A DNA stretch of 64,000 bases, taken from positions 9,062-73,061 of the forward strand of contig JACQXN010000020.1 of the NCBI GenBank assembly GCA_016208745.1, read 5' to 3'. Position 1 is the first letter of the stretch. Each line of letters begins with the position of its first letter. The position numbers and the translations under genes are program-made. This stretch comes from Candidatus Portnoybacteria bacterium. GTDB taxonomy: Bacteria; Patescibacteriota; Minisyncoccia; Portnoybacterales; GWB1-42-6. Shown piece by piece: positions 5,098 through 64,000 of the stretch. Under the pieces are notes generated by a model. That model was not told the DNA's origin. It searched no databases and was given only the letters and a program-made list of their open reading frames with translations.

Positions 5098-8275
<3,178 letters not shown>

Positions 8276-17847: not shown

Positions 17848-17932
17848 TTGTGCAACCGGTAACTTGATCAATCGTTGCACAGTCTATTAAATCTCCCCTA
17901 GCCCCTCCTAAAGGAGGGGAATTACTCCTTAT

Positions 17933-18763
17933 ATGCTTATTGATACTCACGCTCACATTAACTTTATTGCCTACAAAGAAGATGGCGGGGAAGTTATAAA
18001 AAGGGCATTAGAAAATAATACCTGGATAATTAATGTCGGCTCGCAATGGGATACTAGCCGCCGGGCAGTTGAATACGCCAAAAAATATGAAGAAGGCATA
18101 TTTGCGGCTGTGGGCTTGCATCCTATTCATTTAAGAAGCATAAAAATAAAAGAGGAATTTGATGAACAGGAATTATTAGAATTTGAAACGCAGGAAGAAA
18201 AATTTGATTATGAAAAATATAAAACATTAGCCAGTGAGTCGGGCGCCATAGCTATAGGCGAAACAGGATTGGACTATTACCGTATTAATGAGGAAGACAA
18301 GGAAAATCAAATAAAACTTCAAAAAGAAAATTTTTTAGCGCATATTAAATTGGCGCAAGAAATTAGCAAACCTTTGATTGTCCATTGCCGCGAGGCGCAT
18401 AACGAGGTTTTGGAAATATTAAAGTCGCAAGTGACAAGTGACAAGTTGCAAGGAGTAATTCATTCTTTCTCGGGCCGGTTGAGCCAGGCAGAGCAATATT
18501 TAGAAATGGGATTTTATTTAGGATTTAATGGTATCATTACTTTTGCGCGGGATTATGATAAAGTAATAAAGGAAATACCGCTTGAGAGAATTTTGGTTGA
18601 AACCGACTGCCCTTATTTAACGCCGATTCCTTTCCGCGGAAAAAGAAACGAGCCTTTATATGTTAAATATGTGGCGGAGAAGATAGCGGAAATAAAAGGA
18701 GTTTCGTTTGATGAGGTGTCAGAAGTGACAACGGATAATGCGAGAGGACTATTCTATATATAA
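17933..18763 (+). CDS. tatD: TatD-family Mg-dependent DNase/hydrolase
   Basis: Contains MLIDTHAHINF, then GLHPIH, and further HS/D motifs. It also contains a heptad-like duplication, (CAAGTGA)x2. Confidence 0.85.
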   Translation: MLIDTHAHINFIAYKEDGGEVIKRALENNTWIINVGSQWDTSRRAVEYAKKYEEGIFAAVGLHPIHLRSIKIKEEFDEQELLEFETQEEKFDYEKYKTLASESGAIAIGETGLDYYRINEEDKENQIKLQKENFLAHIKLAQEISKPLIVHCREAHNEVLEILKSQVTSDKLQGVIHSFSGRLSQAEQYLEMGFYLGFNGIITFARDYDKVIKEIPLERILVETDCPYLTPIPFRGKRNEPLYVKYVAEKIAEIKGVSFDEVSEVTTDNARGLFYI

Positions 18764-18784
18764 TGCAAATATCATGCGAATCTT

Positions 18785-19180
18785 ATGCAAATGCCGCAAA
18801 TAGATAAGATGATCTATCCGGAATTATCATATAAGGTCTGTGGTCTATGTTTTTATATTCATAACCGACTGGGTCGATATAGGAACGAAAAGCAATATGG
18901 CGATGCACTAGAAGTTGCTTTTGATGAAGCGGGCATCATTCACAAAAGAGAAAAAAGGTTGCCAGCATCTTTTGTCGGAGAGAAAAGCTATAGGAATATA
19001 CCGGACTTTATCATTGAAGATAAGCTGATTGTTGATTTGAAAGCCAAAACCATAATCACAAAAGATGATTATTTCCAGATGAGGCGCTATCTAGTCTCTT
19101 ATAAAAAGAGGCTGGGTCTCATTATTAATTTCCGTCAAAAATATTTGAGACCAAAAAGAATCCTAAATAAATTTGCTTGA
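18785..19180 (+). CDS. GxxExxY family protein
   Basis: 131 aa. The N-terminal region IYPELSYKVCGLCFYIHNRLGRYRNEKQYGDALEVAF is typical of the GxxExxY family, which is often mobile or intron-associated. Confidence 0.65.
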   Translation: MQMPQIDKMIYPELSYKVCGLCFYIHNRLGRYRNEKQYGDALEVAFDEAGIIHKREKRLPASFVGEKSYRNIPDFIIEDKLIVDLKAKTIITKDDYFQMRRYLVSYKKRLGLIINFRQKYLRPKRILNKFA

Positions 19181-19228
19181 TTTATTCGCATCATTTGAAT
19201 ATCATTCGCATTTATTTGAATTATATTT

Positions 19229-19705
19229 ATGCTTGAGATCAAAAAATACGGCGAGCCGATTTTAAGGAAAAAAGCTAAACCGGTTGGAAAAATAGACCCG
19301 GAGATTTTGAAATTGATAGATTATATGATTCAGGCCATGCGGCAGAATCAGGGAGTCGGCGTGGCGGCAAATCAAATTGGCATTGATTTGAGAATCGCGG
19401 TTGTCGACGCGGGCAATGGTTTAAAAATTTTAATTAATCCCGAAATTATTAAAGCAAGGGGAAAAAGCGTTAAGGATGAAGGATGTTTGAGTTTCCCGGG
19501 AATATATTTTAAAATCGCGCGGCCAGAAATCGTGGAAATGAAAACTTTAAATAAAAAAGGCGAGGAGGTTATTTTAAAAGCCCAGGGCTTGGAAGCCCGG
19601 GCTTTTTGTCATGAGATAGACCATTTAAACGGGAAATTAATTATAGACCATTTAAGTTTTTGGCAGAAATTAAAGTTTAAAAAGGGTCGGCTATCTAATC
19701 GTTGA
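19229..19705 (+). CDS. def: Peptide deformylase
   Basis: All three Def motifs are present: GVGVAANQIG, EGCLSFPG and HEIDHLNG. Confidence 0.9.
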   Translation: MLEIKKYGEPILRKKAKPVGKIDPEILKLIDYMIQAMRQNQGVGVAANQIGIDLRIAVVDAGNGLKILINPEIIKARGKSVKDEGCLSFPGIYFKIARPEIVEMKTLNKKGEEVILKAQGLEARAFCHEIDHLNGKLIIDHLSFWQKLKFKKGRLSNR

Positions 19706-19721
19706 TAAAGGTAAGCAAAAA

Positions 19722-19748
19722 GAAAAAGGGCATAGCGCCCTTTTTAAG
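19722..19748. terminator. Bidirectional intrinsic terminator, AAAGGGC-ATAGC-GCCCTTTTT
   Basis: Perfect 7-bp stem flanked by an A-run and a T-run. It lies between def (+) and the convergent - strand gene. Confidence 0.6.
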
Positions 19749-19766
19749 TTTGAGATTTAATCTCCT

Positions 19767-20198
19767 TCATCTTTTCTCCCTGTATATTAGTCGCAAGACG
19801 AAGAACGTTACCCCAATTACAACCAGAGAAAAAACTAATTCTGCTGCGCTATTTACTATCAAAGATTTCCACCCTATTTTTCGTGAGAGATCCAAAACAA
19901 AGCCTGCCAATCCAAAAGACATATTTGCTATCAGGATTGTAATTGCCCAGAGCGCCAATTTTTGATTGAGGTCCATTTTATTTCTTTCGTTTCTTTTTGT
20001 CGCTTTATTAAGAAGTCGCGCTCCGAAGAAGGCGAGGATGCAGGCTGCAATAGCGCAGATCAGGATATCTGTTTTTGAAATAAGCGGTATAGTTTGATAA
20101 TTTCCGGTCGCGGCTAATGCGTTTAAGAATATAAGCATAAACCACATACAAAATATGGGTAATGCTTTTTCAAAGCGGGTCAATTCCATTTCTGCCAT
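19767..20198 (-). CDS. Hypothetical membrane protein
   Basis: 143 aa with four predicted TM segments. It is more plausible than the overlapping + ORF 19702..19965. Confidence 0.45.
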   Translation of the reverse strand: MAEMELTRFEKALPIFCMWFMLIFLNALAATGNYQTIPLISKTDILICAIAACILAFFGARLLNKATKRNERNKMDLNQKLALWAITILIANMSFGLAGFVLDLSRKIGWKSLIVNSAAELVFSLVVIGVTFFVLRLIYREKR

Positions 20199-20228
20199 AA
20201 GCCCCCTCCTTTTTTAAGATAAAATTTG

Positions 20229-20423
20229 TTAGTATTTTCTAATGTAAATGAACTTCCATAGCTGTTTATACTCTCTTGGTTCAACAAATCCACCTTTCAT
20301 TGCTCGCCGGTCAAGCCACGGGTTAATAACGAATGCCCATGCCATATCAGCGATAATCGCTGTCAGAATTAAAGGCCACCATTCTTTCAGAAATCCCATC
20401 ATTAATTCTATCAAGGCAATCAC
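20229..20423 (-). CDS. Small hypothetical protein of 64 aa, downstream of ccdA
   Basis: Small ORF co-oriented with ccdA with no motif. This is a weak call. Confidence 0.25.
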   Translation of the reverse strand: MIALIELMMGFLKEWWPLILTAIIADMAWAFVINPWLDRRAMKGGFVEPREYKQLWKFIYIRKY

Positions 20424-20438
20424 CCCCTCAATATTTTT

Positions 20439-21236
20439 TTATAACCATCCTCCCAACATAACAATTCCCAAGCCAATTAATATTACGCCGGCGATTAAAT
20501 GCAGAAGCCGGATTTTTTGTTTACGCCAATTTTCAGCGCGCTCTGGAGCAAGGCCCCAATACATCGCAAAAACTATAACTAACATTGGTAAAACAAAAAT
20601 TAAGTTGTAAATAATAAGATATAAAATCGCTTTGATAAACGAAACCTTGCTGGCTAGCATTCCAAGAATTACTACATAGGGCCCAGAAGTGCAGGGCAGT
20701 AAAAACAGGCTGATTAAAAGACCAATGGCAAATGCGCCAACGGGATTGGTTACCCTTTTTATCATGGATTTCATTTTTGGCCGCCAGCTTTGCGGAACTT
20801 CCATTAAAAAACCCTTGCCATACCAAAAATAATCCTTGATATTTAAAAGCCCAATAATTATGGCTAAAATGCCAATAACTTTATAAAAAACTCCTGAAAA
20901 AGAAAGAGTATATTGCCGGATAACAGCGAAAAGCCCGACGCCCATTAGGAAATAGGCAAGAAAAATTGCTGTGGTAAACGCCAGCCCCGCCCAAAGCGCC
21001 TTTTTCCTATTACTTTCATCAATTAGCATCGAGGCCATTAAAAGTATTAAAATAGCAAATTCACAGGGATTAATTGCATCAACCGCCGCGCCACAAATAA
21101 CTGCCACAGGCGTTAAATGCAGCGATTGAAGGCCTGTATGGCAGGCGGCTTCATCCGCAGAGGCAAATTCAGGCAATAAAAAAACAGCTGCAATAAGTAT
21201 TGATAAAGCTATCTTTACGGCTAAGTGTTTATTCAT
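20439..21236 (-). CDS. ccdA: Cytochrome c biogenesis / thiol-disulfide transporter CcdA (DsbD-family) membrane protein
   Basis: It has two conserved Cys in TM segments (NPCEF and LLPCTSGP), a signal peptide, and 6 TM segments. Confidence 0.7.
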   Translation of the reverse strand: MNKHLAVKIALSILIAAVFLLPEFASADEAACHTGLQSLHLTPVAVICGAAVDAINPCEFAILILLMASMLIDESNRKKALWAGLAFTTAIFLAYFLMGVGLFAVIRQYTLSFSGVFYKVIGILAIIIGLLNIKDYFWYGKGFLMEVPQSWRPKMKSMIKRVTNPVGAFAIGLLISLFLLPCTSGPYVVILGMLASKVSFIKAILYLIIYNLIFVLPMLVIVFAMYWGLAPERAENWRKQKIRLLHLIAGVILIGLGIVMLGGWL

Positions 21237-21365
21237 ATAGTCTTTGGATATAGTAGATCATATTTGAAAAAAAAGCAAAATTGAGGTAGAGTAAAATAAA
21301 AATCCACCCCGACCCTCCTTTTCCAAAGGAGGGGATATTCCTTCTTTCGAAAAAGGGAGGCCAAG

Positions 21366-21488
21366 ATGGATTTGGAATATATGGATAAATATGACCCGAA
21401 AAAAGTAGAGCCCAAATGGCAGAAGTTTTGGGAGGAACATCCCGAGCTTTTTTCAGCCAAAGAAGATTCCAAGGGAAAAAAGGAATAG
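21366..21488 (+). other. leuS: N-terminal 40 codons of leuS, separated from the main ORF by an in-frame TAG at 21486-21488
   Basis: The translation MDLEYMDKYDPKKVEPKWQKFWEEHPELFSAKEDSKGKKE is followed by TAG, then ILDMFPYPSGDG. This is the canonical LeuS N-terminus (YNPKEIExKWQKxW...). Confidence 0.8.
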
Positions 21489-21491
21489 ATT

Positions 21492-23987
21492 TTGGATATG
21501 TTTCCATATCCTTCAGGCGATGGTTTGCATACCGGGCATGTTGAAAGCTATACCGCAACAGATATCATTTCCCGTTATTGGCGTATGAAGGGAAAAAATG
21601 TTTTGCATCCGCAGGGCTTTGACGCTTTTGGTTTGCCGGCAGAAAACTTTGCCATTAAAACAAAGATTCATCCTTCGCAAACCACTCAAAAAGCAATTGC
21701 CACTTTCAAGCAGCAAATGAATATGCTCGGATTTTCCTATGATTGGTCGCGGGAAGTTAATTCGTCTGACCCAAAATATTATAAGTGGACACAATGGTTT
21801 TTTCTTTTACTTTACAAAAATGGTCTGGCATATAGGGGTAAAGCAAAAGTTAATTGGTGCAATTCTTGTCAAACGGTTTTGGCCAACGAACAGGCCGAAG
21901 GCGGAGTTTGCGAGCGATGCGGCAGTCCGGTTGTGCAAAAGGATTTGGAGCAGTGGTTTTTTAAAATTACTGATCTTATTGAATCCAAGGGCGCTACTTC
22001 CGGATTGCTACAGGGTCTTGATAAAATTGACTGGCCAGAATCAACCAAAGCCGGCCAGCGCAACTGGATAGGGAAGTCAGAGGGAGCGCAGTTTAAAATG
22101 GAAATTATAACCAGTACCACCCCGGCCTCCGGCCACCCCTCCTCAGCTGAGGAGGGGACGAAAGGGGAGGTGTTGGATTATATTGAAGTTTTTACAACGC
22201 GATTGGACACGGTTTTTGGGATGACTTTTGCCCTTATCGCTCCGGAACATAAGATTATCAACGAGCTTAAATCGCAAATTGAGAATTGGAGTGAGGTTGA
22301 AAAATATATTGAAGAGGCCAGGAAAAAATCAGAGTTGCAAAGAATTTCTGAAACCAAAGAAAAAACAGGAGTGGAAATAAAAGGCGTAAAAGTTATTAAT
22401 CCTTTTACCGAGCAGGAAATTCCGGTTTTTATTTCCGACTTTGTTTTAGCGCATTATGGAACAGGCGCTGTTATGGCCGTTCCCGGACACGACCAGCGCG
22501 ATTACGAATTTGCTAAAAAATTTAACCTGCCGATTATTGAAGTGATAAAAAGCGAGGACAGAAAATCATCAATTGAAAAGGAGGCATTTATAGAAGATGG
22601 GGTATTGGCTAATTCGCGCGAATACGACAATACAACTTCTGCAAAAGCACGCGAAAAATTAATTGAGTGGATCCAGAAAAATAATCTGGGCGAAAAGAAA
22701 ATTAATTACAAAATGCGCGATTGGTTGGTTTCGCGGCAAAGATATTGGGGCGCGCCAATCCCGATAATTTATTGTCCGCAATGTTGTCATTCCCGCCCCG
22801 CATCGCAGTACGGGGCGAATCTAGAAAACGAAAAATCTGGATCCCGGATCAAGTCCGGGATGACAGAATTTGAAATTACAGAGATTGACGGAAAAAAATA
22901 TGCGATGGTCCCCATTCCAGAAAAAGATTTACCAGTGCTTTTGCCTGATGATGTTGATTTTATGCCGCATGGCGAATCCCCTCTTTCAAAATCAAAAAAA
23001 TTTCACGATGTTTCGTGTCCAAAATGCGGAGAGAAGGCGAAAAGGGAGTCAGACACAATGGACACATTTGTCTGTTCCTCCTGGTATCATTTCCGTTATG
23101 CTGATCCGAAAAACGAAAAAGAATTTGCCAGCAAAGAGAAAATAGAGAAATGGTTGCCAGTTGATTTGTATGTTGGGGGCGCGGAGCATACGGTTTTACA
23201 TCTTTTGTATTCCCGTTTTTTTACCAAGGCCTTGCATAATCTCGGCTACATTGATTTTGACGAGCCGTTTTTAAAAATGCGGCATCAAGGAATAATTTTG
23301 GCTGAAGACGGCCAAAAAATGTCAAAGTCGCTCGGCAATGTTATCAATCCTGATTCGGTGGTGGCACAATATGGCGCCGATGCCTTACGGATGTTTGAAA
23401 TGTTTATGGGGCCGCTGGAAGATGCAAAACCTTGGAATACTAAGGGGATCACCGGGATCTATAGGTTTTTGGAGAAAGCATGGAGGATAAGCTTAAAGTT
23501 TAAAGTTAAAAGTGAAAAGTCAGGGCTAGAAGTTAAAAGTTTAATACATAAAACAATTAAGAAAGTTAGTGAAGACATAGAAAAATTAAAATTTAATACA
23601 GCTATCAGCGCATTAATGGTTTTGCTAAATGAGATTGAAAAAAACGAAGAAATGCCCATCGAGGTTTTTGAAAAGTTTTTAATTCTCCTTTCGCCCTTTG
23701 CGCCGCATATCTCAGAGGAGATTTGGTCACAGTTAGGTCATGAAGAAAGTATTTTTAAAGAAAAATGGCCTGAATATAATCCCGAATTAATTAAAGAAGA
23801 GATAATTGAGTTGATCATTCAGATTAACGGCAAGGTGCGCGATACGATTTCTGTGGCGGTTGATATTTCGGAAACTGACGCTAAAAAACTCGCGCTTGAA
23901 AGCGAGAAGATAAAAAAATATCTTTTGGGCAGAGAGCCAAAGAAAATTATTTTTGTTAAAGAGAAACTAATAAATATTGTATTGTGA
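21492..23987 (+). CDS. leuS: Leucyl-tRNA synthetase main ORF (TTG or ATG restart just after the TAG). It carries at least three in-frame repeat insertions.
   Basis: Contains MFPYPSGDGLHTGH (HIGH), KMSKSLGN, the editing domain and a Zn knuckle CPQC...CPKCG. The insertions are at 22118-22175, 22785-22865 and 23492-23547. Confidence 0.9.
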   Translation: MDMFPYPSGDGLHTGHVESYTATDIISRYWRMKGKNVLHPQGFDAFGLPAENFAIKTKIHPSQTTQKAIATFKQQMNMLGFSYDWSREVNSSDPKYYKWTQWFFLLLYKNGLAYRGKAKVNWCNSCQTVLANEQAEGGVCERCGSPVVQKDLEQWFFKITDLIESKGATSGLLQGLDKIDWPESTKAGQRNWIGKSEGAQFKMEIITSTTPASGHPSSAEEGTKGEVLDYIEVFTTRLDTVFGMTFALIAPEHKIINELKSQIENWSEVEKYIEEARKKSELQRISETKEKTGVEIKGVKVINPFTEQEIPVFISDFVLAHYGTGAVMAVPGHDQRDYEFAKKFNLPIIEVIKSEDRKSSIEKEAFIEDGVLANSREYDNTTSAKAREKLIEWIQKNNLGEKKINYKMRDWLVSRQRYWGAPIPIIYCPQCCHSRPASQYGANLENEKSGSRIKSGMTEFEITEIDGKKYAMVPIPEKDLPVLLPDDVDFMPHGESPLSKSKKFHDVSCPKCGEKAKRESDTMDTFVCSSWYHFRYADPKNEKEFASKEKIEKWLPVDLYVGGAEHTVLHLLYSRFFTKALHNLGYIDFDEPFLKMRHQGIILAEDGQKMSKSLGNVINPDSVVAQYGADALRMFEMFMGPLEDAKPWNTKGITGIYRFLEKAWRISLKFKVKSEKSGLEVKSLIHKTIKKVSEDIEKLKFNTAISALMVLLNEIEKNEEMPIEVFEKFLILLSPFAPHISEEIWSQLGHEESIFKEKWPEYNPELIKEEIIELIIQINGKVRDTISVAVDISETDAKKLALESEKIKKYLLGREPKKIIFVKEKLINIVL
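22785..22865. mobile_element. TGTCATTCCCGC-TIR MITE inserted in-frame (81 bp, 27 codons) inside leuS
   Basis: TGTCATTCCCGCCCCGCATCGCAGTACGGGGCGAATCTAG...ATCTGGATCCCGGATCAAGTCCGGGATGACA encodes the extra segment between CPQCC and EFEITEIDGKKY in the LeuS Zn-knuckle region. Confidence 0.65.
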
Positions 23988-24011
23988 TTTTCAGTTTTTT
24001 ATATAAAAAGA

Positions 24012-24040
24012 TTGACTTTAAAGTGCTATTGCGATAGATA
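24012..24040 (+). promoter_or_regulatory. Sigma70-like promoter, TTGACT-17-TAGATA
   Basis: TTGACT at 24012-24017, a 17-nt spacer, then TAGATA at 24035-24040. Confidence 0.35.
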
Positions 24041-24302
24041 TAACATAAAGGGAGCAAAAATCGGTATCTGTTGCATGGGGCGTGTGGAAATAAGCAAAAT
24101 GAGAAGTCCCGGGCTAGTATCGTTTTGCAAAACTTCCATAATCTTGCTGGAGGCCAGGCGCATTTATTGCGGCTGTTGCCGAAAAAAAGAGTGCATGAAA
24201 GATTTTGCCGGTTAATCTCCTCTCTCCCTTCCCCCTTGCATCAACAAGGGGGATTTTCATTTGTATTTTTAGCGAGATTGAGGATATAATTGATTTAAAG
24301 AT

Positions 24303-24947
24303 ATGGACGTTATTAAAATCAACCCCGAAAATTTAAGGCCTTCGCGATACGGCATAGAAAAAGCCGCCGAAATTATTTTGCGCGGCGGGGTAGTTGTAAT
24401 TCCTACAGACACTGTTTATGGTTTGGCGGCTGACGCGACAAAAGAGTATGCTGTCAAAAAGATTTTTAAAATAAAAAAAAGACCGGAAACCAAGCCTGTG
24501 CCTTTGATTGTCCGCGACTTAGAAATGGCAAAAAAACTGGCGTTTGTCGATAAAAGGCTTGAAAGAATTTTAAACCTTATCTGGCCGGGCGCCATCACGG
24601 CTATTTTGCAAAAAAAATTTAATTTGCCAGAAATTGTGACAGCCGGGAAAAGAACGATTGGCCTGCGGATTCCAGATTATAAACTAATTCATTTTTTGAT
24701 TGAAGAGATTGGCCGGCCTCTTACTGCCACTTCCGCTAATATTTCCAGTCAGCCGCCATCAAATAAAATTGAGGATGTTTTAAGCCAATTTCGAAACGAA
24801 TTTTTTCGGCCGGATTTGGTTTTGGATGCTGGCGATTTGAAATGTTGTGAACCTTCAACTGTTCTTGATTTATCAACTGATCAGCCAAAAATTATCAGAA
24901 TTGGGCCAGCTAGCCCTAAGAAGTTGATGGAGATACTTTCAATATGA
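24303..24947 (+). CDS. tsaC: L-threonylcarbamoyladenylate synthase (TsaC/Sua5/YrdC family)
   Basis: Contains GGVVVIPTDTVYGLAADA and KIFKIKKRPETKPVPLIV, the YrdC-domain signature. Confidence 0.85.
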   Translation: MDVIKINPENLRPSRYGIEKAAEIILRGGVVVIPTDTVYGLAADATKEYAVKKIFKIKKRPETKPVPLIVRDLEMAKKLAFVDKRLERILNLIWPGAITAILQKKFNLPEIVTAGKRTIGLRIPDYKLIHFLIEEIGRPLTATSANISSQPPSNKIEDVLSQFRNEFFRPDLVLDAGDLKCCEPSTVLDLSTDQPKIIRIGPASPKKLMEILSI

Positions 24948-24954
24948 TTTTCAT

Positions 24955-25150
24955 GCCGCTTTTTTGGCAGCAAAAAAGCGGCGGAAAAAACTGCGCCCAG
25001 AGCGTAAAAATTTAATAAAATCGGATTCGCCTCGCTAAATTTGCTATCCACAACGCCCCAACCTTACGGTCGGGGCCCCACCACAGCACGCAAATTTTAC
25101 GCTTGGCTCATCGCGATTTTATTAATAAATTTTTCGCTATAGGCGGTGAA
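24955..25150 (+). repeat. Copy 2 of the ~190-bp structured intergenic repeat, tsaC to PAP2
   Basis: Same block order. The 5' hairpin is CCGCTTTTTTGGCAGCAAAAAAGCGG, a different sequence with the same fold. Confidence 0.65.
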
Positions 25151-26863: not shown

Positions 26864-26879
26864 TGAGGAATGAAGCTAG

Positions 26880-26963
26880 TGCCGCTGGTCGGAGTCGAAC
26901 CGACATGAGCTTGCGCTCACAGCATTTTGAGTGCTGCGTGTCTGCCAGTTTCACCACAGCGGC
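26880..26963 (-). tRNA. tRNA-Leu (anticodon CAA), class II with a long variable arm
   Basis: Folded by hand from the reverse complement. Acceptor GCCGCTG/CAGCGGC, D-stem GTG/CAC, anticodon stem CAGCA/TGCTG with loop CTCAAAA, variable arm TGAGCGCAAGCTCAT, T-arm GTCGG-TTCGACT-CCGAC, discriminator A. CCA is not encoded. Confidence 0.85.
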
Positions 26964-27810: not shown

Positions 27811-27963
27811 CTACGGAATACAGATAAGTACAGATATACGGATAAAAACAAAATCCACCCCGCCCCTCCTTTAAAAAGGAGGGAGATTCCTCCCTTTGAA
27901 AAAGGGAGGGTAGGAGGGATTTGGATTTAATCTGTATATCTGTAATAAATCCATAATCCGTAG
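27811..27963. mobile_element. MITE-like element. It has roughly 35-bp terminal inverted repeats (CTACGGAATACAGATAAGTACAGATATACGGAT) and a CCTCC-family palindromic core.
   Basis: The left end 27811-27845 and the reverse complement of the right end 27925-27963 match. A second copy with the same TIRs and a different core is at 44658-44858. Confidence 0.6.
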
Positions 27964-55621: not shown

Positions 55622-55684
55622 CAAAAAGGGGAATAAATCCACCCCACCCCTCCTTTTTCAAAGGAGGGAGTAAAAAAACAAATA

Positions 55685-55718
55685 TACCCGGCGCAAAGCA
55701 ATGCGTCGGGTTTTTAAT
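55685..55718 (+). terminator. Intrinsic terminator (duplicate of 54258-54294)
   Basis: ACCCGGCGC-N9-GCGTCGGGT plus TTTTT. Confidence 0.55.
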
Positions 55719-55768
55719 TTGTCCGGCCTTTATTTTCAGGAAGTTATCCACAATAAACTTTTGACGTC

Positions 55769-56240
55769 TTGACAGCATTTTACTATTTGCTAAACTAATA
55801 TAACGCCTTAAAAAGGCGCTAAAAAACCATAGATTAAAATTAGAAAACAAAATTAGAATTTAGATTTAAACCACCTACGGAGGGTAGCGAGAATCGTAAT
55901 GCAAGAGCCCGATAAGCTCACACATTACATACTGATTGACTAGAAGGGTGGTTTTTTTATTTTCTCGTCAAAAATTTCAAGTGTTAACGCAGAAATTTTT
56001 GTAACGAGAAAATAACCCCGCATTTATTCTTACCAAAGGGCAAGAAGACCAGTAAACGAAGGCGCAGGTCTCAAGGCCGGAGCCGTTTCGCGCAATAATA
56101 CAGAAATAGATAAACTTGGCTGGAATAAGTGCGGGGTTGAAAACAGAATTTATTGTCCGCATACCCGCCGTCGCCAAGGCTTTGGCGGGCAGGCGCGGGA
56201 GATTCTTCTCCGTCCGCAAATGCGGACGGAGAAGAATGAC
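55769..56240 (+). ncRNA. Copy A of a conserved promoter plus structured non-coding element of unknown class
   Basis: Promoter TTGACA-16-TAAACT, then hairpin H1 (AAACCACC...GGTGGTTT plus T-run), hairpin H2 (16-bp stem), a domain H3 closed by a 15-bp stem ACCCCGCAYTTATTC/GAATAAGTGCGGGGT, and a 17-bp perfect hairpin at 56195-56236. It is homologous to 62808-63205 with compensatory changes. Confidence 0.5.
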
Positions 56241-56548
56241 AGAAGAAAGTTAATCCAAATTTTAACATCCGATTGTTAATCTGGCGCATAGGGGGCGAAG
56301 TTCTATAAATAATTTTTTTATAAATCCCTCCCAACCTCCCCTAAAGGGGAGGAGTAAAAAATTCCCCTCCTTTAGGAGGGGTTAGGGGAGATTTAGTAAA
56401 AGGTCGACATTGCCTGCTTTCCGCTTTTAGCGGTTTTCTGCCAAAAGCAGGGCAGTGAACTAGCACATTTTAAAAATAAAGGCAGAAAACAGATATTAAC
56501 GAATTGCGGATTAACGAATTTTAACGCGTTAGTTCGTTAATTCATAAA

Positions 56549-57412: not shown

Positions 57413-57737
57413 CTATTTTTTGCGAAACGAGCAGGAGAAGCTTTCGGGCTTCTCCTCTCGGATAAGCTCTTAATTTATTTCCCCCTTTTTAAAGGGGGAT
57501 AAAGGGGGATTTAAAAAGACAAATCTAAATCCACCCCTCCCCTCCTTTAAAAAGGAGGGGAGGAATATCGATTGATAGCTTATGCGAGGGAAAAATGCCA
57601 GAATTTCTAATTACTCCGCCCAAGGCGGATCCGCCTCTGGCGGATAATTCAATCCCAATGCCCAATGTCAAGATTTAAAAATTAGACATTTGGGAACTAA
57701 ATATTTTATTGGAAATTAGGAATTATTTAAGAAATTT

Positions 57738-58346: not shown

Positions 58347-58544
58347 ATTCACTGAATCATAAAGCGGGCATTTTTTGCCTCCCCTCCTCAGATGAGGAGG
58401 GGAATTAAAGGGGTGGTGGTGACCTTAATAATTCAACACCCCACCCTACCCCTCCCCTCATCTGAGGGGAGGGAAGACGCCTATTTTATAATTCAATGTT
58501 AAGCCAATATTTTAATCTAACTCCGGAGGGAAGTTATATCGGTT

Positions 58545-61349
58545 ATGAAAGCCAAACAGAGCAGGAGGGGAGATAATTGTTTTTTAACTAATTTAACTCG
58601 GGGAAAACAGAAAAACTTTATTTTAATTCCCTTACTGGTTATCAGTTTGGTGGTTTTTAATTTTCCCGCCATATCGGTTTTAGCCGAAGAAGTCCCGACT
58701 GACGCGCCAGCAGACACAACTTTAAGCCAAGATGCGCCAGCGCCTGCAGAAACTCCTGCGCCAACGGAAAATCCTGCTCCGCCGGAAGATGTGGTTATTG
58801 ACACCGGGGACGCCAATGGCGGCATTGAGGTTGAAAACTCTGTTAACACCAATATCGCCCAGCTTGGCGATCCGGCAGAAAGCCAGACAGACTGGTCAGA
58901 GCTTGAAGGAGAAGTCCAAGGACAGGCTGATGAAGCCGCTCAAACAGAGGCTGAAGAAACCGGTGAAACTGAAACTCAAGAGACCGCAGAAACTTTAGGC
59001 GACAATCCTCCAGCCGAGCCAGAAGAAGAATTGGCTCAAGGCGTTGACAATAGCAATGACGAGGAAAATAATGACGGCCAAAACACACTCGATATTACAA
59101 ATGATAATCAGGCTGATGTTGGAAACGACGTTGTTGGAGTCGGCTCAACCGGCGACAATCAAGCAGAGGGCGAAGCTTGCGACGTTGATATTAATACCGG
59201 CGCTGTCAATTTATACACCTATTTAATAAATATCGTTAACACCAATATTTTTGCCTCTGATTTCTCCCAGTTTTTGTTAAATCTTTTTGAGGGTTTGCAA
59301 GGCGATATTGATTTATCCAGCGAAATTGCTTCTTCGGCAGAAGGATGCCTAGGCGATGATTGCATAGACAATATTAATATCACCAATAATAACAACGGCA
59401 CAACGACCAACGATGTTTTGCTTGACGGCTCAAGCGGGGGAAACACCGCGCAAAGCAATGGCGGATCGGCAACTATTAACACCGGCGATGTTAATGTGGT
59501 GGCCAATGTTTTAAATATCTTAAACTCCAATATCGTTGGCGCAAACTGGACTCAATTTATCATCAATGTTTTTGGCGATTGGATGGGCGATTTGGTTTTG
59601 CCCGGCAAGGACCAGATGCAGGATCAATTTGGCAATAGCGGCTCTGCCTGCTGCGGCGATTTGTCCATTACCAATTCAAATCAAGGCCAGATAATAAATG
59701 ATGTTAGCGTTATTTCAGACACCGGTTTAAACACAACGCAAGGCGATGGCGGCTCAATTAACACCGGCGACGCGCAAGCGGATGTTAATGTTTTCAATAT
59801 CGCCAATACCAATATAACCGGCAATAATTTCTTTTTGATGAAGGTTAATAATTTTGGCGACTGGAACGGCAGTATTTTCAGTCTGCCGCCCGGATTTTTC
59901 ATTAGCCAAGACGGAATGGGCTTTGAAATTATAAACGCTGGTTCAAGCAGCGGCGTGGGAATTTCTGGCAGCGACTTAAATATCACCAACAATAACGCCG
60001 GCGCGATTATAAACAGAGTAATCATCAATGCCTTTACCGGCGGAAACACCGCTCAATCATCAGGCGGCTCTGCTTCAATTAATACCGGCGATGCCCAAGC
60101 GATAGTCAATTTGATGAATATTATGAATACCAATATCGTGGGCAATAATTTCCTTTTGGGCATGGTTAATATTTTTGGCAACTGGCAGGGCAATTTGGCC
60201 TTTGGCCGGCCAGACAACTGGATTGGTTCCTCTGCCGCCACCCTGCCTGATCCGGTCAGCCCGGGCGGCGAAATTGCCTATAACCTGGCCTACACTAACA
60301 AAGGCAATGCCGATGCGAGCAATGTTTTGGTCAAAGCCGGCTTCAATAAGGGGATTGTGGAAATCTTAAATAGCGGCGGCGGCTTTATTGACGAAGCAGC
60401 CGGCGAAATTATCTGGAATGTTGGCGATTTATCAATCGGCGAAACCGGCGCAGTTTCCTATGCTGTCCAGGTTAAAGATGATGTGCAAAATGACGTAAAA
60501 ACAATTGATACCACTTCTTCCATTTCAAGCCTTGAGAGCGACAATAACAGCCAAGACAACACAGACACTCTTTCGGTGGCTCTTTATCGCGGCAGTTCTT
60601 TGGGCGCTTTGGTTGGCGGGCCAAACGAAACTTTGCCGAATATGAAATTAACTCAAGCCAACAATGCTTATGATGGCGCCTGGCAAGGTGGCAGCATTAG
60701 TTTCTCTACCAAGCTTTTTAACGATAGTTCGGGCTCTTCTTATGACACGATTCTTTACAATAACATCCGATCAGTTTCTTCAACCGATATTCTAGACACC
60801 CAGCAATGGAATTTGGGCAAAGTTTTTCCCAATGAAGAGATAACAATTGATTTTGCCATTGTGGTTGGCGAAAATTTGCCGCCGGGCGAGTATCTAAGCT
60901 TTACCCAGGCGGCTGGCAAAGATGCTTCTGGCAACGCCAGCTATTCAACTATTGCTTCAAGCGTATTTAAAGTTGTAGAAGCTCCGGATACTGAAAATGT
61001 CGCGTCAGAAGAGGCAGCCGAGCTGAATGAAGAAGAGAATTCACAAAACAATATTGTGTCGGACATAAAAGATGTGGTTCAGGAAATATTAGCGCCTCTT
61101 AGACCAAAAACCATTAGCGCTTCGGATGAAAATGGGCCAGCAGTTGTTCGCGAAGTTTCAGCTTCAAACGAACAAGGTGGCGTTTTAGGGGATTTGCAAG
61201 AAGAGTCAAATAACAGACGCAGCTTAAATCTTTTTTCAGCGATTGGGTCTTTGGGCTGGTGGGGCTGGCTGATTATATTGGCTATCTTGGCAGCATTCTT
61301 GATTCTTCTGTTTTTGACAAAGAAAAGGAAAAAGGAAGAATCTTATTAG
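58545..61349 (+). CDS. Large cell-surface protein with four tandem ~60-aa repeats and a C-terminal TM anchor
   Basis: N-terminal TM/signal, an acidic Pro/Glu-rich linker, four copies of ...GGNTAQSxGGSAxINTGDxxAxVNxxNIxNTNIxGNNF..., and a C-terminal LGWWGWLIILAILAAFLILLFL-KKRKK anchor. Confidence 0.75.
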   Translation: MKAKQSRRGDNCFLTNLTRGKQKNFILIPLLVISLVVFNFPAISVLAEEVPTDAPADTTLSQDAPAPAETPAPTENPAPPEDVVIDTGDANGGIEVENSVNTNIAQLGDPAESQTDWSELEGEVQGQADEAAQTEAEETGETETQETAETLGDNPPAEPEEELAQGVDNSNDEENNDGQNTLDITNDNQADVGNDVVGVGSTGDNQAEGEACDVDINTGAVNLYTYLINIVNTNIFASDFSQFLLNLFEGLQGDIDLSSEIASSAEGCLGDDCIDNINITNNNNGTTTNDVLLDGSSGGNTAQSNGGSATINTGDVNVVANVLNILNSNIVGANWTQFIINVFGDWMGDLVLPGKDQMQDQFGNSGSACCGDLSITNSNQGQIINDVSVISDTGLNTTQGDGGSINTGDAQADVNVFNIANTNITGNNFFLMKVNNFGDWNGSIFSLPPGFFISQDGMGFEIINAGSSSGVGISGSDLNITNNNAGAIINRVIINAFTGGNTAQSSGGSASINTGDAQAIVNLMNIMNTNIVGNNFLLGMVNIFGNWQGNLAFGRPDNWIGSSAATLPDPVSPGGEIAYNLAYTNKGNADASNVLVKAGFNKGIVEILNSGGGFIDEAAGEIIWNVGDLSIGETGAVSYAVQVKDDVQNDVKTIDTTSSISSLESDNNSQDNTDTLSVALYRGSSLGALVGGPNETLPNMKLTQANNAYDGAWQGGSISFSTKLFNDSSGSSYDTILYNNIRSVSSTDILDTQQWNLGKVFPNEEITIDFAIVVGENLPPGEYLSFTQAAGKDASGNASYSTIASSVFKVVEAPDTENVASEEAAELNEEENSQNNIVSDIKDVVQEILAPLRPKTISASDENGPAVVREVSASNEQGGVLGDLQEESNNRRSLNLFSAIGSLGWWGWLIILAILAAFLILLFLTKKRKKEESY

Positions 61350-61691
61350 TTTTTTGAGGCTGAGTTTGTCTAATAATAACTTGATTAGCCACAAATCCTC
61401 CCTCGCCTCGCTTAAGCTCCGGCGAAGCGGGCCAGCCCTCCCCCGTATCAAGTACGGGGCAAGCTCTAAAGGGAGGGAGCAGGGATTATTCCCCTCCTTT
61501 AGGAGGGGTTAGGGGAGATTTAGATTGGTGTAAGAGTTAATTAATTTCAGGAACCATCGCAGATTACATTATTATTCATTAAACCCTAGGCTATTATTTG
61601 TTTGACAGGATTCCTTGAGGCGGTAAAATGATAAATAAACATCGCTTTTTTTGCAGCGGGCGAGTTTTAATAATTATTAAAACTATAAAAA

Positions 61692-62504: not shown

Positions 62505-62526
62505 AACAGAGAAGTATTTATTTCAA

Positions 62527-62566
62527 AAACAGTCCGTTCGTAAAGGCGATCGGGCTGTTTTTTATG
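62527..62566 (+). terminator. Intrinsic terminator downstream of the metalloprotease gene
   Basis: ACAGTCCG-N14-CGGGCTGT plus TTTTTT. Confidence 0.5.
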
Positions 62567-62807
62567 TCTTTTTTCCTCCTCTCAGACTTGCCCCGTTCAG
62601 CGGGGTGAAGGAGAGGTAGGGTGGGGTGTTGAAAAGACAAATTTTACAATAATTCCCTCTCCTCAGTTGAGGAGAGGGGAAGGGTGAGGTGATGTTTTCA
62701 AATCAACACCACCCCCAACCCCTCCTCATCTGAGGAGGGGAGGAATCATTTTAGGGTTTTCCACAGATTTCTCCACATTTGGTTCACTTTTCATAAACAG
62801 CGCGATT

Positions 62808-63205
62808 TTGACGCTGTTTTTTTGTTTGGTTAAACTGATATAACGGGCTGGAAAAAGCGAGATTTTTTTCATCTGAAATTAATCTTTGTTATTTTAGAAT
62901 GCGATTGGGACATGATTATTTTATTTTAATTTTTTCAATTAGTTAAAAAACCACCTAATTATCAATAACTATGCTGAGGGAAAAACCCAAAATTGCATTT
63001 ATAGTTAGCTGAAAAGAAAGGGTGGTTTTTATTTGTTTGTCAAAATTTTAGAACTCGCCGCAGCGAGCGATAAAAATTTTATAACAAACAAATAACCCCG
63101 CACTTATTCTTACCAAAGAGCAAGAATGTCAAAGAACAAAGGCGTAGCCGTTTCGTGCGATAAGACGGAAATAAGAATACTTGGCTGGAATAAGTGCGGG
63201 GTAAC
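62808..63205 (+). ncRNA. Copy B of the conserved promoter plus structured non-coding element
   Basis: Promoter TTGACG-17-TAAACT and H1/H2/H3 homologous to copy A. The H2 stem is TTTGTTTGT/ACAAACAAA where copy A has TTCTCGT/ACGAGAA, a compensatory change. Spurious ORFs are called over it. Confidence 0.5.
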
Positions 63206-63410
63206 TCCCGATAAATAATTGCTCTCTCTATCAGAAAGTCCTTGATAGGTGGGGGAAAAGGTCGAAAAGTGGCTTCCCTTGGTTCTGCAGAAACGGAGCT
63301 AAGGCGAGCCACTTTAAGTAAAAAATTAATAAATTAGTCAATTAACGAATTAAAGAATTAACGAATTAAATCCGTTAATCCGTTAATGCGTTAATAAATA
63401 ATAATTAATA

Positions 63411-64000
63411 TGAAGAAGATTATATTAAGTTTAAGCATTATCGCGGCGGCCGCGGCAGTGGTCATCGGCGTCACGACTTCATTTTTTTCCGACACCGAAA
63501 CTTCCAGCGGCAACACCTTTACCGCTGGCGACATTGATCTCCAGATTGATAATGAAAGTTATGTGACTAATGAAGACGGAATATTGGTTGCGAGCCCTAA
63601 TACGAGCTGGGATTTAGCAGATCTTACAATAGAAAAATTTTTTGATTTTGATGATCTAAAACCCGGCGACATTGGCGAGGATACAATTTCAATTCATATT
63701 GGCTCAAACGACGCATGGGTTTGCGCTGCGGCAAGAATTACCGCAGACGAAGATGTTACGTGTACTGAGCCAGAAGGCGATGACGATTCAAATTGCGCCG
63801 AGTCGGGCGCGGGGCTTGGAGAGTTAGATGAAGAAATAAATTTTGCATTTTGGGTAGACGATGGTGATAACGTGCTTGAGGATAATGAGGTTAGCTCTAT
63901 TTTTCTCGAAGGACCATTAAGCGGAATTGGCGCGCAGGGGCAAATTACCTTGGCGGATTTCGATGAATCGATTCTTCCAGACAAAGGTCCTATTCCGGGC
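63411..64000 (+). CDS. TasA/camelysin-like protein with a SipW-cognate-class signal peptide; 3' end truncated by the window edge
   Basis: MKKIILSLSIIAAAAAVVIGVTTSFFSDTETSSGNTFTAGDIDL matches the SipW-cognate N-terminal signature (FSDTETS...N.F.AG.LDL). No stop codon before the window ends. Confidence 0.7.

What the first reader, a model, noticed from the sequence alone, without database searches (positions are those of the whole stretch)
21366..21500. leuS is interrupted by an in-frame TAG between codon 40 and the catalytic core
The frame translates 21366-21485 as MDLEYMDKYDPKKVEPKWQKFWEEHPELFSAKEDSKGKKE, a typical LeuS N-terminus. A TAG follows at 21486-21488, and the same frame continues as ILDMFPYPSGDGLHTGH... 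(HIGH region) through 23987. A TTG (21492) and an ATG (21498) directly downstream could reinitiate translation. TAG is used as a normal stop by other genes in the window (AI-2E transporter, parB, ORF 16603), so a genetic-code change is unlikely. The remaining options are a sequencing or assembly error, a split or N-terminally truncated but functional LeuS, stop-codon readthrough, or a pseudogene (unlikely for the only leuS seen here).
Basis: seen in the sequence. Interest (0 to 1): 0.7.

Follow-up and report, generated by a model that had tools for sequence, protein, structure and literature searches.

The report
One-base stop codon discrepancy in leuS
The stop codon that seems to split this bacterium's leucyl-tRNA synthetase gene is a single-base difference found only in this one low-coverage metagenome assembly; independent assemblies of the same population read a normal tyrosine codon there, so the gene is almost certainly intact and ordinary.

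Summary
leuS starts at ATG 21366 behind a strong Shine-Dalgarno site, reads 40 sense codons, hits TAG at 21486-21488, then continues in frame to TGA 23985-23987. The biological readings are not supported.

- **Source:** a Candidatus Portnoybacteria (CPR) MAG, where NCBI calls an 829-aa LeuS from ATG 21498.
- **Independent assembly:** a 7,092-nt Logan contig (SRR12113404, seen in 2 runs) matches window 17894-24985 at all but three bases. One is 21488, where it reads T. That gives TAT (Tyr) and an uninterrupted 873-aa LeuS.
- **Conservation:** this residue is Tyr, or sometimes Phe, in all 117 informative homologs and in solved LeuRS structures.
- **Allele private to this MAG:** no product of the TAG allele occurs in any other assembly.
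- **Nature of the differences:** the three lie within 370 bp. All are transversions from T, and all change the protein.
- **Genetic code:** TAG ends 17 of 56 long ORFs at the expected family C-termini, and the window has no suppressor tRNA.

Most likely this is a consensus error in a bin of probably about 5x coverage. Less likely it is a rare real variant. It is not recoding, a split gene or a pseudogene. Interest is low.

The parts
21355..21360 (+). Shine-Dalgarno site GGGAGG, 5 nt upstream of the leuS start codon ATG 21366
   Evidence: Read directly from the sequence. It supports 21366 as the true start of a full-length leuS.
21366..23987 (+). leuS, bacterial-type leucine--tRNA ligase, 873 codons plus TGA. 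Codon 41 is TAG in this record and TAT in independent assemblies.
   Evidence: TIGR00396 scores 979.7 bits. It aligns end to end with Thermus LeuRS 1h3n. P0121 (873 aa, Logan) equals the read-through translation with Tyr41. Across the 2,622 nt of the gene, the window and L001 differ only at 21488.
21486..21488 (+). The in-frame TAG. Position 21488 is G here and T (TAT, Tyr) in Logan contig L001 from SRR12113404, which was seen in 2 runs.
   Evidence: The position aligns with Tyr in 1h3n and 6q89 and is Y or F in all 117 informative homologs. Relatives use TAC (L002) and TAT (L003/L004).
21492..21500 (+). TTG 21492 and ATG 21498, the possible restart codons. NCBI's 829-aa call (MBI4709213.1) starts at ATG 21498. 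AAGGA at 21480-21484 lies 7 nt before the TTG.
   Evidence: Both codons are ordinary internal Leu and Met codons of the conserved motif Y-I-L-D-M-F-P-Y-P-S-G.
21119..21138 (-). The two other differences private to this MAG, in the neighbouring membrane-protein gene (20439-21236, minus strand). 21119 is G versus T (N40H); 21138 is A versus T (Q33H).
   Evidence: The window's H33/H40 protein occurs only in this NCBI MAG, while the Q33/N40 form is on 2 Logan contigs. Together with 21488, all three differences fall within 370 bp.
22137..22156 (+). Palindromic REP/MITE-like element CCCCTCCTCAG/CTGAGGAGGGG inserted in frame in leuS. It encodes ..GHPSSAEEG.. and is one of about 11 copies in the window.
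   Evidence: (I5). It appears as an insertion relative to Thermus LeuRS, and it is identical in L001.
22785..22904 (+). Second in-frame insertion in leuS, rich in hairpin repeats (aa 474-513, CHSRPASQYGANLENEKSGSRIKSGMT...), after the CPQC zinc-knuckle motif (aa 470-473) and before the stretch that aligns with Thermus LeuRS again from aa 514.
   Evidence: There is an alignment gap against 1h3n between query residues 473 and 514. The DNA and a shared 14-mer at about 2403 on the minus strand are. It is identical in L001.

Best explanation
The organism's leuS is an ordinary, intact, single-ORF gene of 873 codons for a bacterial-type leucyl-tRNA synthetase. In this sequence record alone, the third base of the Tyr41 codon (TAT) reads G, which gives TAG. 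This is a single-base discrepancy private to this MAG. Most likely it is a consensus or base-calling error that survived assembly of a low-coverage bin. Nothing is programmed: no recoding, no readthrough signal, no split enzyme. The 829-aa NCBI protein starting at MFPYPSG is an annotation consequence of that one base. Shown here: TAT in an independently assembled contig of the same population; an aromatic residue at this site in every informative homolog; TAG working as a terminator in this window. Inferred: that the G is technical rather than a real rare allele, and that the MAG is the roughly 5x bin Portnoybacteria_40_5 of He et al. 2021.
For: 1. P0001 (829 aa, NCBI, this MAG only) shares its 90% cluster with P0121 (873 aa, Logan, 2 contigs). 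P0121 equals the window's read-through translation with Y at position 41.
2. Logan contig L001 (SRR12113404, 7,092 nt, seen in 2 runs) equals window 17894-24985 except at 21119, 21138 and 21488. At 21488 it has T, giving TAT.
3. The 40-aa, 35-aa and 831-aa products of the TAG allele are absent from a collection of 15 billion proteins. The 829-aa product and the window's H33/H40 neighbour protein occur only in this NCBI MAG.
4. The TAG column is Tyr in solved LeuRS structures. It is Y, or F in a minority, in all 117 informative homologs of 120. Of the 3 others, which were called from MFPYPSG, one is this MAG's own call (P0001), one is a start-calling artefact with an open upstream frame (P0058), and one was not examined (P0039).
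5. The three local differences are all transversions from T and all change the protein (Q33H, N40H, Y41stop). None is synonymous, which is the pattern expected of unselected error rather than strain divergence.
6. TAG ends 17 of 56 long ORFs, at positions where the Pfam profiles end. The window has no suppressor tRNA.
7. The project's supplement lists one Portnoybacteria bin with 40% GC, named ..._40_5, where the suffix gives GC and coverage. Its tree neighbour is CG_4_9_14_3_um_filter_40_10, which also carries the closest named LeuS homolog. The window's GC is 40.6%.
8. Broken leuS calls occur elsewhere in public assemblies as evident artefacts (L014, L015).
Against: - I could not inspect reads, so the G at 21488 is not shown directly to be an error.
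- The window differs from Logan contigs at a similar low rate elsewhere (3 in 10,069 nt). One site, 60962, varies among the Logan runs themselves, so real microdiversity exists and the G could be a true minor allele.
- Three differences within 370 bp could also be a linked haplotype. MEGAHIT's default k-mer multiplicity filter (my knowledge of the assembler) makes a variant seen in only one read unlikely to be assembled.
- In run SRR12113406 the contigs break on both sides of this region (20968 and 22006). That would fit local heterogeneity as well as low coverage.
- The link from MAG to bin, and from the SRR runs to the BioProject, is inferred and not verified.
Confidence: 0.85

Rival explanations
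1. The TAG is a real allele carried by a subpopulation or strain captured in this sample. It is a recent nonsense mutation in leuS, linked to two nearby missense changes. It is either a defective variant at low frequency that the low-coverage consensus happened to follow, or a variant rescued by another means.
For: - Real SNP-level microdiversity exists in this population: 60962 varies among Logan runs, and 7969 and 8042 are transition differences.
- The three private differences cluster within 370 bp, as a linked haplotype would.
- Contigs in SRR12113406 break around this region.
Against: - The allele is seen in no other assembly.
- It has zero synonymous changes and zero transitions among three differences.
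- It inactivates an essential gene that is single-copy in the window, at a residue that is aromatic in all 117 informative homologs.
- The two runs that assembled this region both read T. They are probably other filters from the same site and date (inferred).
Confidence: 0.11
2. The TAG is real and tolerated. Ribosomes terminate at TAG 21486 and restart at TTG 21492 or ATG 21498, using the AAGGA at 21480-21484 as a Shine-Dalgarno site. This would give a 40-aa peptide plus an N-terminally truncated LeuRS of 831 or 829 aa that still works, possibly with the peptide bound in trans. Alternatively, near-cognate tRNA-Tyr reads through the TAG at a low level.
For: - AAGGA lies 7 nt before TTG 21492, and the stop is 3-9 nt from two possible start codons.
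- One CPR lineage (P0069; L003 and L004, two independent assemblies) naturally lacks the N-terminal KWQ helix, so that helix can be lost.
Against: - The restart products would lack Tyr41-Ile-Leu of the first beta strand, which leads into the HIGH motif. Even the naturally short P0069 keeps KKYILDMFPYPSG.
- The AAGGA, TTG and ATG are simply codons of the conserved K-E-Y-I-L-D-M motif and are equally present in the intact TAT allele.
- No homolog shows such an arrangement.
- The same population has an uninterrupted gene.
Confidence: 0.03
3. TAG is recoded in this organism, either reassigned or programmed to a sense meaning such as Tyr, Gln or pyrrolysine, and leuS is one of its targets.
For: Some CPR lineages use altered codes (UGA as Gly in Gracilibacteria and Absconditabacteria; established knowledge). 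The TAG sits at a conserved sense position.
Against: - TAG ends 17 of 56 long ORFs, at family C-termini.
- This is the only gene in the 64-kb window found to carry an in-frame TAG; the window was not scanned exhaustively for others.
- ARAGORN and Rfam find only tRNA-Leu(CAA) in the window.
- Orthologs use TAT, TAC or Phe codons at this position, never TAG.
- The same population reads TAT.
Confidence: 0.01

Closest known systems
Bacterial-type leucyl-tRNA synthetase (TIGR00396 leuS_bact; structures 1H3N/2BYT of Thermus thermophilus, 4AQ7 of E. coli)
   Same: It has the full architecture: the N-terminal KWQ helix, beta-1 plus the HIGH motif (HTGH), the CP1 editing domain (PF13603), KMSKS, the anticodon-binding domain (PF08264) and the C-terminal domain. 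It scores 979.7 bits against the equivalog model. Tyr occupies the TAG position in the structures.
   Different: This record has TAG in place of the Tyr41 codon. The gene also carries two in-frame insertions derived from repeats (22137-22156 and about 22785-22904) that Thermus LeuRS lacks.
Single-base consensus errors and artefactual 'interrupted genes' in metagenome-assembled genomes
   Same: The features match: one base, private to one low-coverage assembly, contradicted by independent assemblies of the same population, and causing the annotation pipeline to call a truncated protein. Other leuS genes in public contigs are broken by evident assembly errors (L014, L015).
   Different: Those other examples look like indel frameshifts in long-read-style contigs. 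Here the lesion is a substitution in a short-read assembly. The error itself was not demonstrated from reads.
Split alpha-beta LeuRS of Aquifex aeolicus
   Same: A LeuRS encoded as two polypeptides (my knowledge; PDB 3o0a, 3pz0 and 3pz5 'Leucyl-tRNA synthetase subunit alpha' appear among the hits).
   Different: In Aquifex the split lies far downstream (alpha about 634 aa, beta about 289 aa; from memory) and is a fixed gene arrangement. Here the 'split' follows residue 40, cuts the first beta strand, and is absent from the same population's other assemblies.
Stop-codon reassignment in CPR bacteria and phages (code 25 UGA=Gly in Gracilibacteria/Absconditabacteria; TAG-recoded phages, code 15)
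   Same: A CPR organism with a stop codon at a conserved sense position.
   Different: Reassignment acts genome-wide and removes the codon from terminator use. Here TAG ends 30% of long ORFs, and only one in-frame TAG was found.

Membership tests
Bacterial leucine--tRNA ligase (TIGR00396) | Whole-protein score above the curated equivalog cut-off, with a match along the full length | tested here: met
   979.7 bits against a cut-off of 548.4. The profile is covered from position 1. Three collinear stretches align to 1h3n residues 1-875.
Bacterial leucine--tRNA ligase (TIGR00396) | Class Ia catalytic signatures HIGH and KMSKS, plus CP1 editing and anticodon-binding domains | tested here: met
   The translation has LHTGH at aa 54-58 and KMSKS at about aa 651-655. 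PF13603, PF00133, PF09334 and PF08264 are recorded on the identical product.
Bacterial leucine--tRNA ligase (TIGR00396) | A single uninterrupted ORF | tested here: inconclusive
   It is interrupted by TAG in this record but uninterrupted (TAT) in independent contig L001 of the same population. Reads were not available to settle which is true of the sampled cells.
Genome-wide stop-codon reassignment (TAG as sense) | The codon is not used as a terminator and occurs in frame in many genes | tested here: not met
   TAG ends 17 of 56 long ORFs. AI-2E_transport is matched to 326 of 327 and DprA_WH to 60 of 61 just before TAG. No other interrupted gene was found in the window, though it was not scanned exhaustively.
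Genome-wide stop-codon reassignment (TAG as sense) | A cognate suppressor tRNA (anticodon CUA) and loss of release factor 1 | tested here: inconclusive
   The window holds only tRNA-Leu(CAA). The rest of the genome and prfA could not be examined.
Programmed readthrough / pyrrolysine-type site-specific recoding | The in-frame stop is conserved at the same position in orthologs | tested here: not met
   All 117 informative homologs have Y or F at this position. Relatives use TAC and TAT. The same population uses TAT.
Naturally split aminoacyl-tRNA synthetase (Aquifex LeuRS alpha-beta type) | Two stably inherited ORFs, each with its own start signals, conserved among relatives | tested here: not met
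   The interruption is absent from the conspecific contig L001 and from all homologs. The apparent short homolog P0058 is a start-calling artefact.
Pseudogene | Several disabling lesions, or relaxed constraint relative to intact orthologs | tested here: not met
   There is a single lesion. The other 2,621 nt of the gene are identical to the intact allele, and all motifs are preserved.

The most novel reading that the evidence does not exclude
The G at 21488 is a real allele at high frequency in the sampled bulk-filter population of this Portnoybacteria species. Those cells would survive with leuS cut after codon 40. They would either restart translation at TTG 21492 or ATG 21498, giving a LeuRS that lacks its N-terminal helix and half of beta strand 1, or rely on low-level near-cognate readthrough of UAG by tRNA-Tyr, which would restore the wild-type protein.
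Probability: 0.04. Interest if true: 0.45.

Novelty: not a real feature. Interest (0 to 1): 0.07.

Why it matters
As biology it matters little. The evidence points to an intact, ordinary leuS, so there is no new recoding event, split synthetase or essential-gene pseudogene in a CPR bacterium.

It matters for data quality. The public protein MBI4709213.1 (829 aa, starting at MFPYPSG) is probably truncated by 44 residues because of one base. The neighbouring protein MBI4709212.1 probably carries two spurious substitutions.

It is also a worked example of a cheap check. Independent assemblies of the same population can resolve an apparent in-frame stop without access to the reads. If the unlikely alternative were true, a viable strain with leuS cut at codon 41 would show that the LeuRS N-terminus and part of beta strand 1 are dispensable or can be supplied in trans.

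Tried and rejected
- **Suppressor tRNA or recoding RNA:** ARAGORN and Rfam at gathering thresholds found only tRNA-Leu(CAA) at 26879-26963.
- **Global TAG reassignment:** rejected on stop-codon usage and on Pfam profile ends.
- **Recurrence of N-terminal truncation in homologs:** P0058 is a start-calling artefact with an open upstream frame. P0069 is truly short but keeps YILD. P0039 sits on a 2.4-kb contig and was not pursued.
- **Further independent copies of the locus:** exact-pattern scans with the variable base left open found nothing in the GTDB representative genomes or the JGI metagenomes. A second large protein search with only the N-terminal 216 aa returned no fragment above 80% identity. 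Exact look-ups of the TAG-allele products found nothing.
- **Coverage of the site in SRR12113406:** tried through the neighbouring genes. Contigs L011 and L013 stop at 20968 and start at 22006, so they are uninformative for the site.
- **Provenance:** I could not find the locus-tag prefix HY764 or the SRR numbers in the supplement of He et al. 2021. The assignment to bin Portnoybacteria_40_5, and of the runs to PRJNA640378, rests on GC content, tree position and a neighbouring run number (SRR12113421) cited in another paper.
- **Not run:** structure prediction and fold search. The model output would not give the contact information needed to judge a truncated enzyme, and the independent-assembly result made it moot.
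Full report
**1. The observation**

A strong Shine-Dalgarno site, GGGAGG (21355-21360), lies 5 nt upstream of ATG 21366. Forty codons follow: MDLEYMDKYDPKKVEPKWQKFWEEHPELFSAKEDSKGKKE. TAG then occupies 21486-21488. The same frame continues as ILDMFPYPSGDGLHTGH... through KMSKS to TGA at 23985-23987.

TTG 21492 and ATG 21498 follow the stop. With the stop masked, the 873-residue product scores 979.7 bits against the NCBIfam equivalog leuS_bact, whose cut-off is 548.4. It also aligns end to end with Thermus thermophilus LeuRS. This is a bona fide bacterial leuS with one in-frame TAG in this record.

**2. What belongs at that codon**

In the alignments to solved structures, the TAG column is Tyr: Thermus KQ-Y-VLVMFPYPSG and Neisseria KY-Y-CLSMFPYPSG.

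I examined the 120 best homologs from a 5.8-billion-protein database. All 117 that include this region have Y, or F in a minority, in the motif K-x-[YF]-[IV]-L-D-M-F-P-Y-P-S. The three that start at MFPYPSG are as follows:
- P0001, which is this MAG's own NCBI call.
- P0058, a start-calling artefact. Its upstream frame is open and encodes the normal N-terminus, with TAC at the Tyr codon.
- P0039, which sits on a 2.4-kb contig and was not examined.

P0069 has a truly short N-terminus but still keeps KKYILDMF, with TAT at the Tyr codon. The TAG is therefore one third-position change away from the expected Tyr codon.

**3. Genetic code**

The window has 40.6% GC and is densely coded under the standard code. 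Among 56 non-overlapping long ORFs, the stop codons are TAA 26, TAG 17 and TGA 13.

TAG-terminated ORFs end where their families end. AI-2E_transport is matched to profile position 326 of 327. DprA_WH is matched to 60 of 61, seven residues before the stop. ParB, RelA/SpoT and FtsA are also complete.

The only tRNA in the window is tRNA-Leu(CAA). I found no other gene in the window with an in-frame stop, though I did not scan for them exhaustively. Global or frequent TAG recoding is excluded within the limits of 64 kb.

**4. The decisive comparison**

The window comes from a MAG labelled Candidatus Portnoybacteria bacterium, on an 82,099-nt contig. NCBI annotated LeuS there as 829 aa (MBI4709213.1), starting at ATG 21498.

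The same 90%-identity cluster has one other member, P0121. It is 873 aa long and comes from Logan assemblies of public sequencing runs. It is identical to the window's read-through translation with Tyr at position 41.

Its contig is L001 (SRR12113404_17057, 7,092 nt, recorded in two runs). It is collinear with window 17894-24985 and differs at only three bases:

| Position | Window | Logan | Effect |
|---|---|---|---|
| 21119 | G | T | N40H in the minus-strand membrane protein 20439-21236 |
| 21138 | A | T | Q33H in the same protein |
| 21488 | G | T | TAG versus TAT in leuS |

**5. Is the TAG allele seen anywhere else?**

No.
- The 40-aa and 35-aa N-terminal peptides and the 831-aa TTG-start product are absent from the 15-billion-protein collection.
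- The 829-aa product and the window's H33/H40 version of the neighbouring protein exist only as this MAG's NCBI entries. The Q33/N40 version is on two Logan contigs.
- Pattern scans with the variable base left open found no other copy in the GTDB representative genomes or the JGI metagenomes.
- A second protein search restricted to the N-terminal 216 residues found nothing above 80% identity.
- In a further run, SRR12113406, the flanking contigs are 100% identical to the window. They stop at 20968 and resume at 22006, so they say nothing about the site.

**6. Error or real variant?**

For a baseline I compared other Logan contigs of the same population (SRR12113398, SRR12113399, SRR12113404, SRR12113406) with the window. 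They differ at 1424 (A434S), 7969 (synonymous) and 8042 (E331K) within 10,069 nt. Position 60962 (synonymous) varies among the Logan runs themselves. So there is a low background of differences, about 3 per 10 kb, and some real microdiversity.

Several points favour a technical origin for the trio around leuS:
- All three are transversions away from T.
- All three change the protein, and one is a nonsense codon in an essential gene at a residue that is aromatic in every informative homolog. None is synonymous. Natural divergence between close strains is normally rich in transitions and synonymous changes.
- All three lie within 370 bp, less than one library insert (400-600 bp according to the source paper).
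- The probable source bin has very low coverage. The supplement of He et al. 2021 lists three Portnoybacteria bins: 44_9, 40_5 and 44_12. Only SR1-18-Bp1_QB3_181220_Portnoybacteria_40_5 (JACQXN000000000) matches 40.6% GC. Its suffix denotes about 5x coverage by that laboratory's naming convention. Its tree neighbour, CG_4_9_14_3_um_filter_40_10, is also the source of the closest named LeuS homolog.

The link from bin to window, and from the SRR12113xxx runs to BioProject PRJNA640378, is an inference. It is supported only by a neighbouring run number cited for that project's groundwater data.

Against a purely technical origin: three clustered differences could be a linked haplotype. MEGAHIT's k-mer multiplicity filter (my knowledge of the assembler) makes errors seen in a single read unlikely to be assembled. 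Without reads I cannot separate the two.

My estimates are as follows:
- About 0.85 that the feature has no biological meaning for the organism's leuS, mostly technical error.
- About 0.11 for a real but rare or defective variant.
- About 0.03 for a tolerated allele using restart or readthrough.
- About 0.01 for recoding.

**7. Mechanistic alternatives**

If the TAG were real, restart is at least conceivable. AAGGA (21480-21484) lies 7 nt before TTG 21492, and the stop is 3 and 9 nt from two possible starts.

However, these are simply the codons of the conserved K-E-Y-I-L-D-M motif, and they are equally present in the intact allele. The restart products would lack Tyr41-Ile-Leu, the start of the first Rossmann beta strand leading into HIGH (established class Ia synthetase architecture). 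Even the naturally shortened P0069 lineage keeps these residues.

A split enzyme of the Aquifex alpha-beta kind is not comparable. That split lies far downstream and is fixed, whereas this one is absent from conspecific contigs. A pseudogene is excluded because the other 2,621 nt of the gene are identical to the intact allele.

**8. Comparison with the known, and verdict**

The gene is a standard member of bacterial LeuRS (TIGR00396). The interruption belongs with single-base assembly discrepancies that create artefactual truncated gene calls in MAGs. Other public contigs show leuS broken into 2-4 pieces by evident assembly errors (L014, L015).

I rate the novelty as not a real feature. Interest is low (0.07). 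The practical outcome is that MBI4709213.1 is probably truncated by 44 residues and MBI4709212.1 probably carries two spurious substitutions. Read mapping over 21050-21550 would settle the matter.

Noticed in passing
window 17903-17918, 21313-21333, 22137-22156, 27864-27883, 55648-55668, 56365-56380, 57535-57559, 58382-58401, 58450-58473, 61492-61507, 62720-62739: A family of short palindromic REP/MITE-like elements with the core CCCCTCCT-loop-AGGAGGGG, often preceded by ATCCACCCC. They are mostly intergenic, but one copy (22137-22156) sits in frame inside leuS and encodes ..GHPSSAEEG.., an insertion relative to Thermus LeuRS. The independent contig L001 has it too, so it is real. Logan contigs L001 and L011 begin at 17894, next to one copy, as expected where a repeat breaks an assembly.
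   Followed up: partly
window 22785-22904 (leuS aa 474-513): A second in-frame insertion of 40 aa, after the CPQC zinc-knuckle motif (aa 470-473) and before the stretch that aligns with Thermus LeuRS again from aa 514. It is built from GC-rich hairpin repeats (TGTCATTCCCGCCCCG...CGGGGCGAA and GGATCCCGGATCAAGTCCGGGATGACA) and gives the peptide CHSRPASQYGANLENEKSGSRIKSGMT. A 14-mer from it recurs at about 2403 on the minus strand. Similar repeat-derived peptides appear in other CPR LeuS N-termini: SFDGLRT in P0028 and P0068, LDSRFRGNDN in P0119.
   Followed up: partly
window 21119 and 21138 (gene 20439-21236, minus strand); also 1424, 7969, 8042: Other single-base differences private to this MAG relative to Logan contigs of the same population: N40H and Q33H in the DsbD_TM/SfLAP-like membrane protein, A434S in ORF 125-1438, and one synonymous change plus E331K in Tgt (7052-8275). 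In 5 of the 6 private alleles the MAG base is G or C where the Logan base is T or A. This might be a technical signature.
   Followed up: partly
L003 2402-4975 and L004 380-2953 (P0069): One CPR lineage, assembled independently in ENA and JGI data, has a LeuS that naturally lacks the N-terminal KWQ helix and starts MDKKKAKKKYILDMFPYPSG. A long GC-rich hairpin lies just upstream. So the first 27 or so residues of LeuRS appear dispensable in that lineage, but the YILD strand is kept.
   Followed up: partly
homolog list (e.g. P0003, P0004, P0020, P0025, P0047, P0051, P0060, P0068, P0071): Many Parcubacteria LeuS homologs are 950-1,285 aa long. They carry extra domains: alpha/beta-hydrolase (PF12697, PF00561, PF06821), NUDIX (PF00293) or Ham1/ITPase (PF01725). 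This suggests recurrent fusions of LeuRS to small hydrolases in CPR bacteria. The window's LeuS has no such fusion.
   Followed up: no
L014 4001-6572; L015 4001-6540: On long contigs of 214 kb and 229 kb (ENA ERZ25039515 and ERZ25039524, named contig_NNN), leuS is called as 2 pieces (336 + 514 aa) or as 4 fragments (307, 73, 68 and 56 aa). These are most simply indel errors in the assemblies. They show that broken leuS calls are a common artefact.
   Followed up: partly
window 20968-22006 relative to L011 and L013 (SRR12113406): In run SRR12113406 the population's contigs end at 20968 and resume at 22006, which leaves unassembled exactly the stretch that holds the three MAG-private differences. 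The cause could be low coverage, the repeat at 21313-21333, or local heterogeneity. It is not resolved.
   Followed up: partly
window 55622-56548 and 62505-64000: These are the largest stretches without a long ORF in my ORF tiling. Both contain copies of the palindromic element. I did not examine them further.
   Followed up: no
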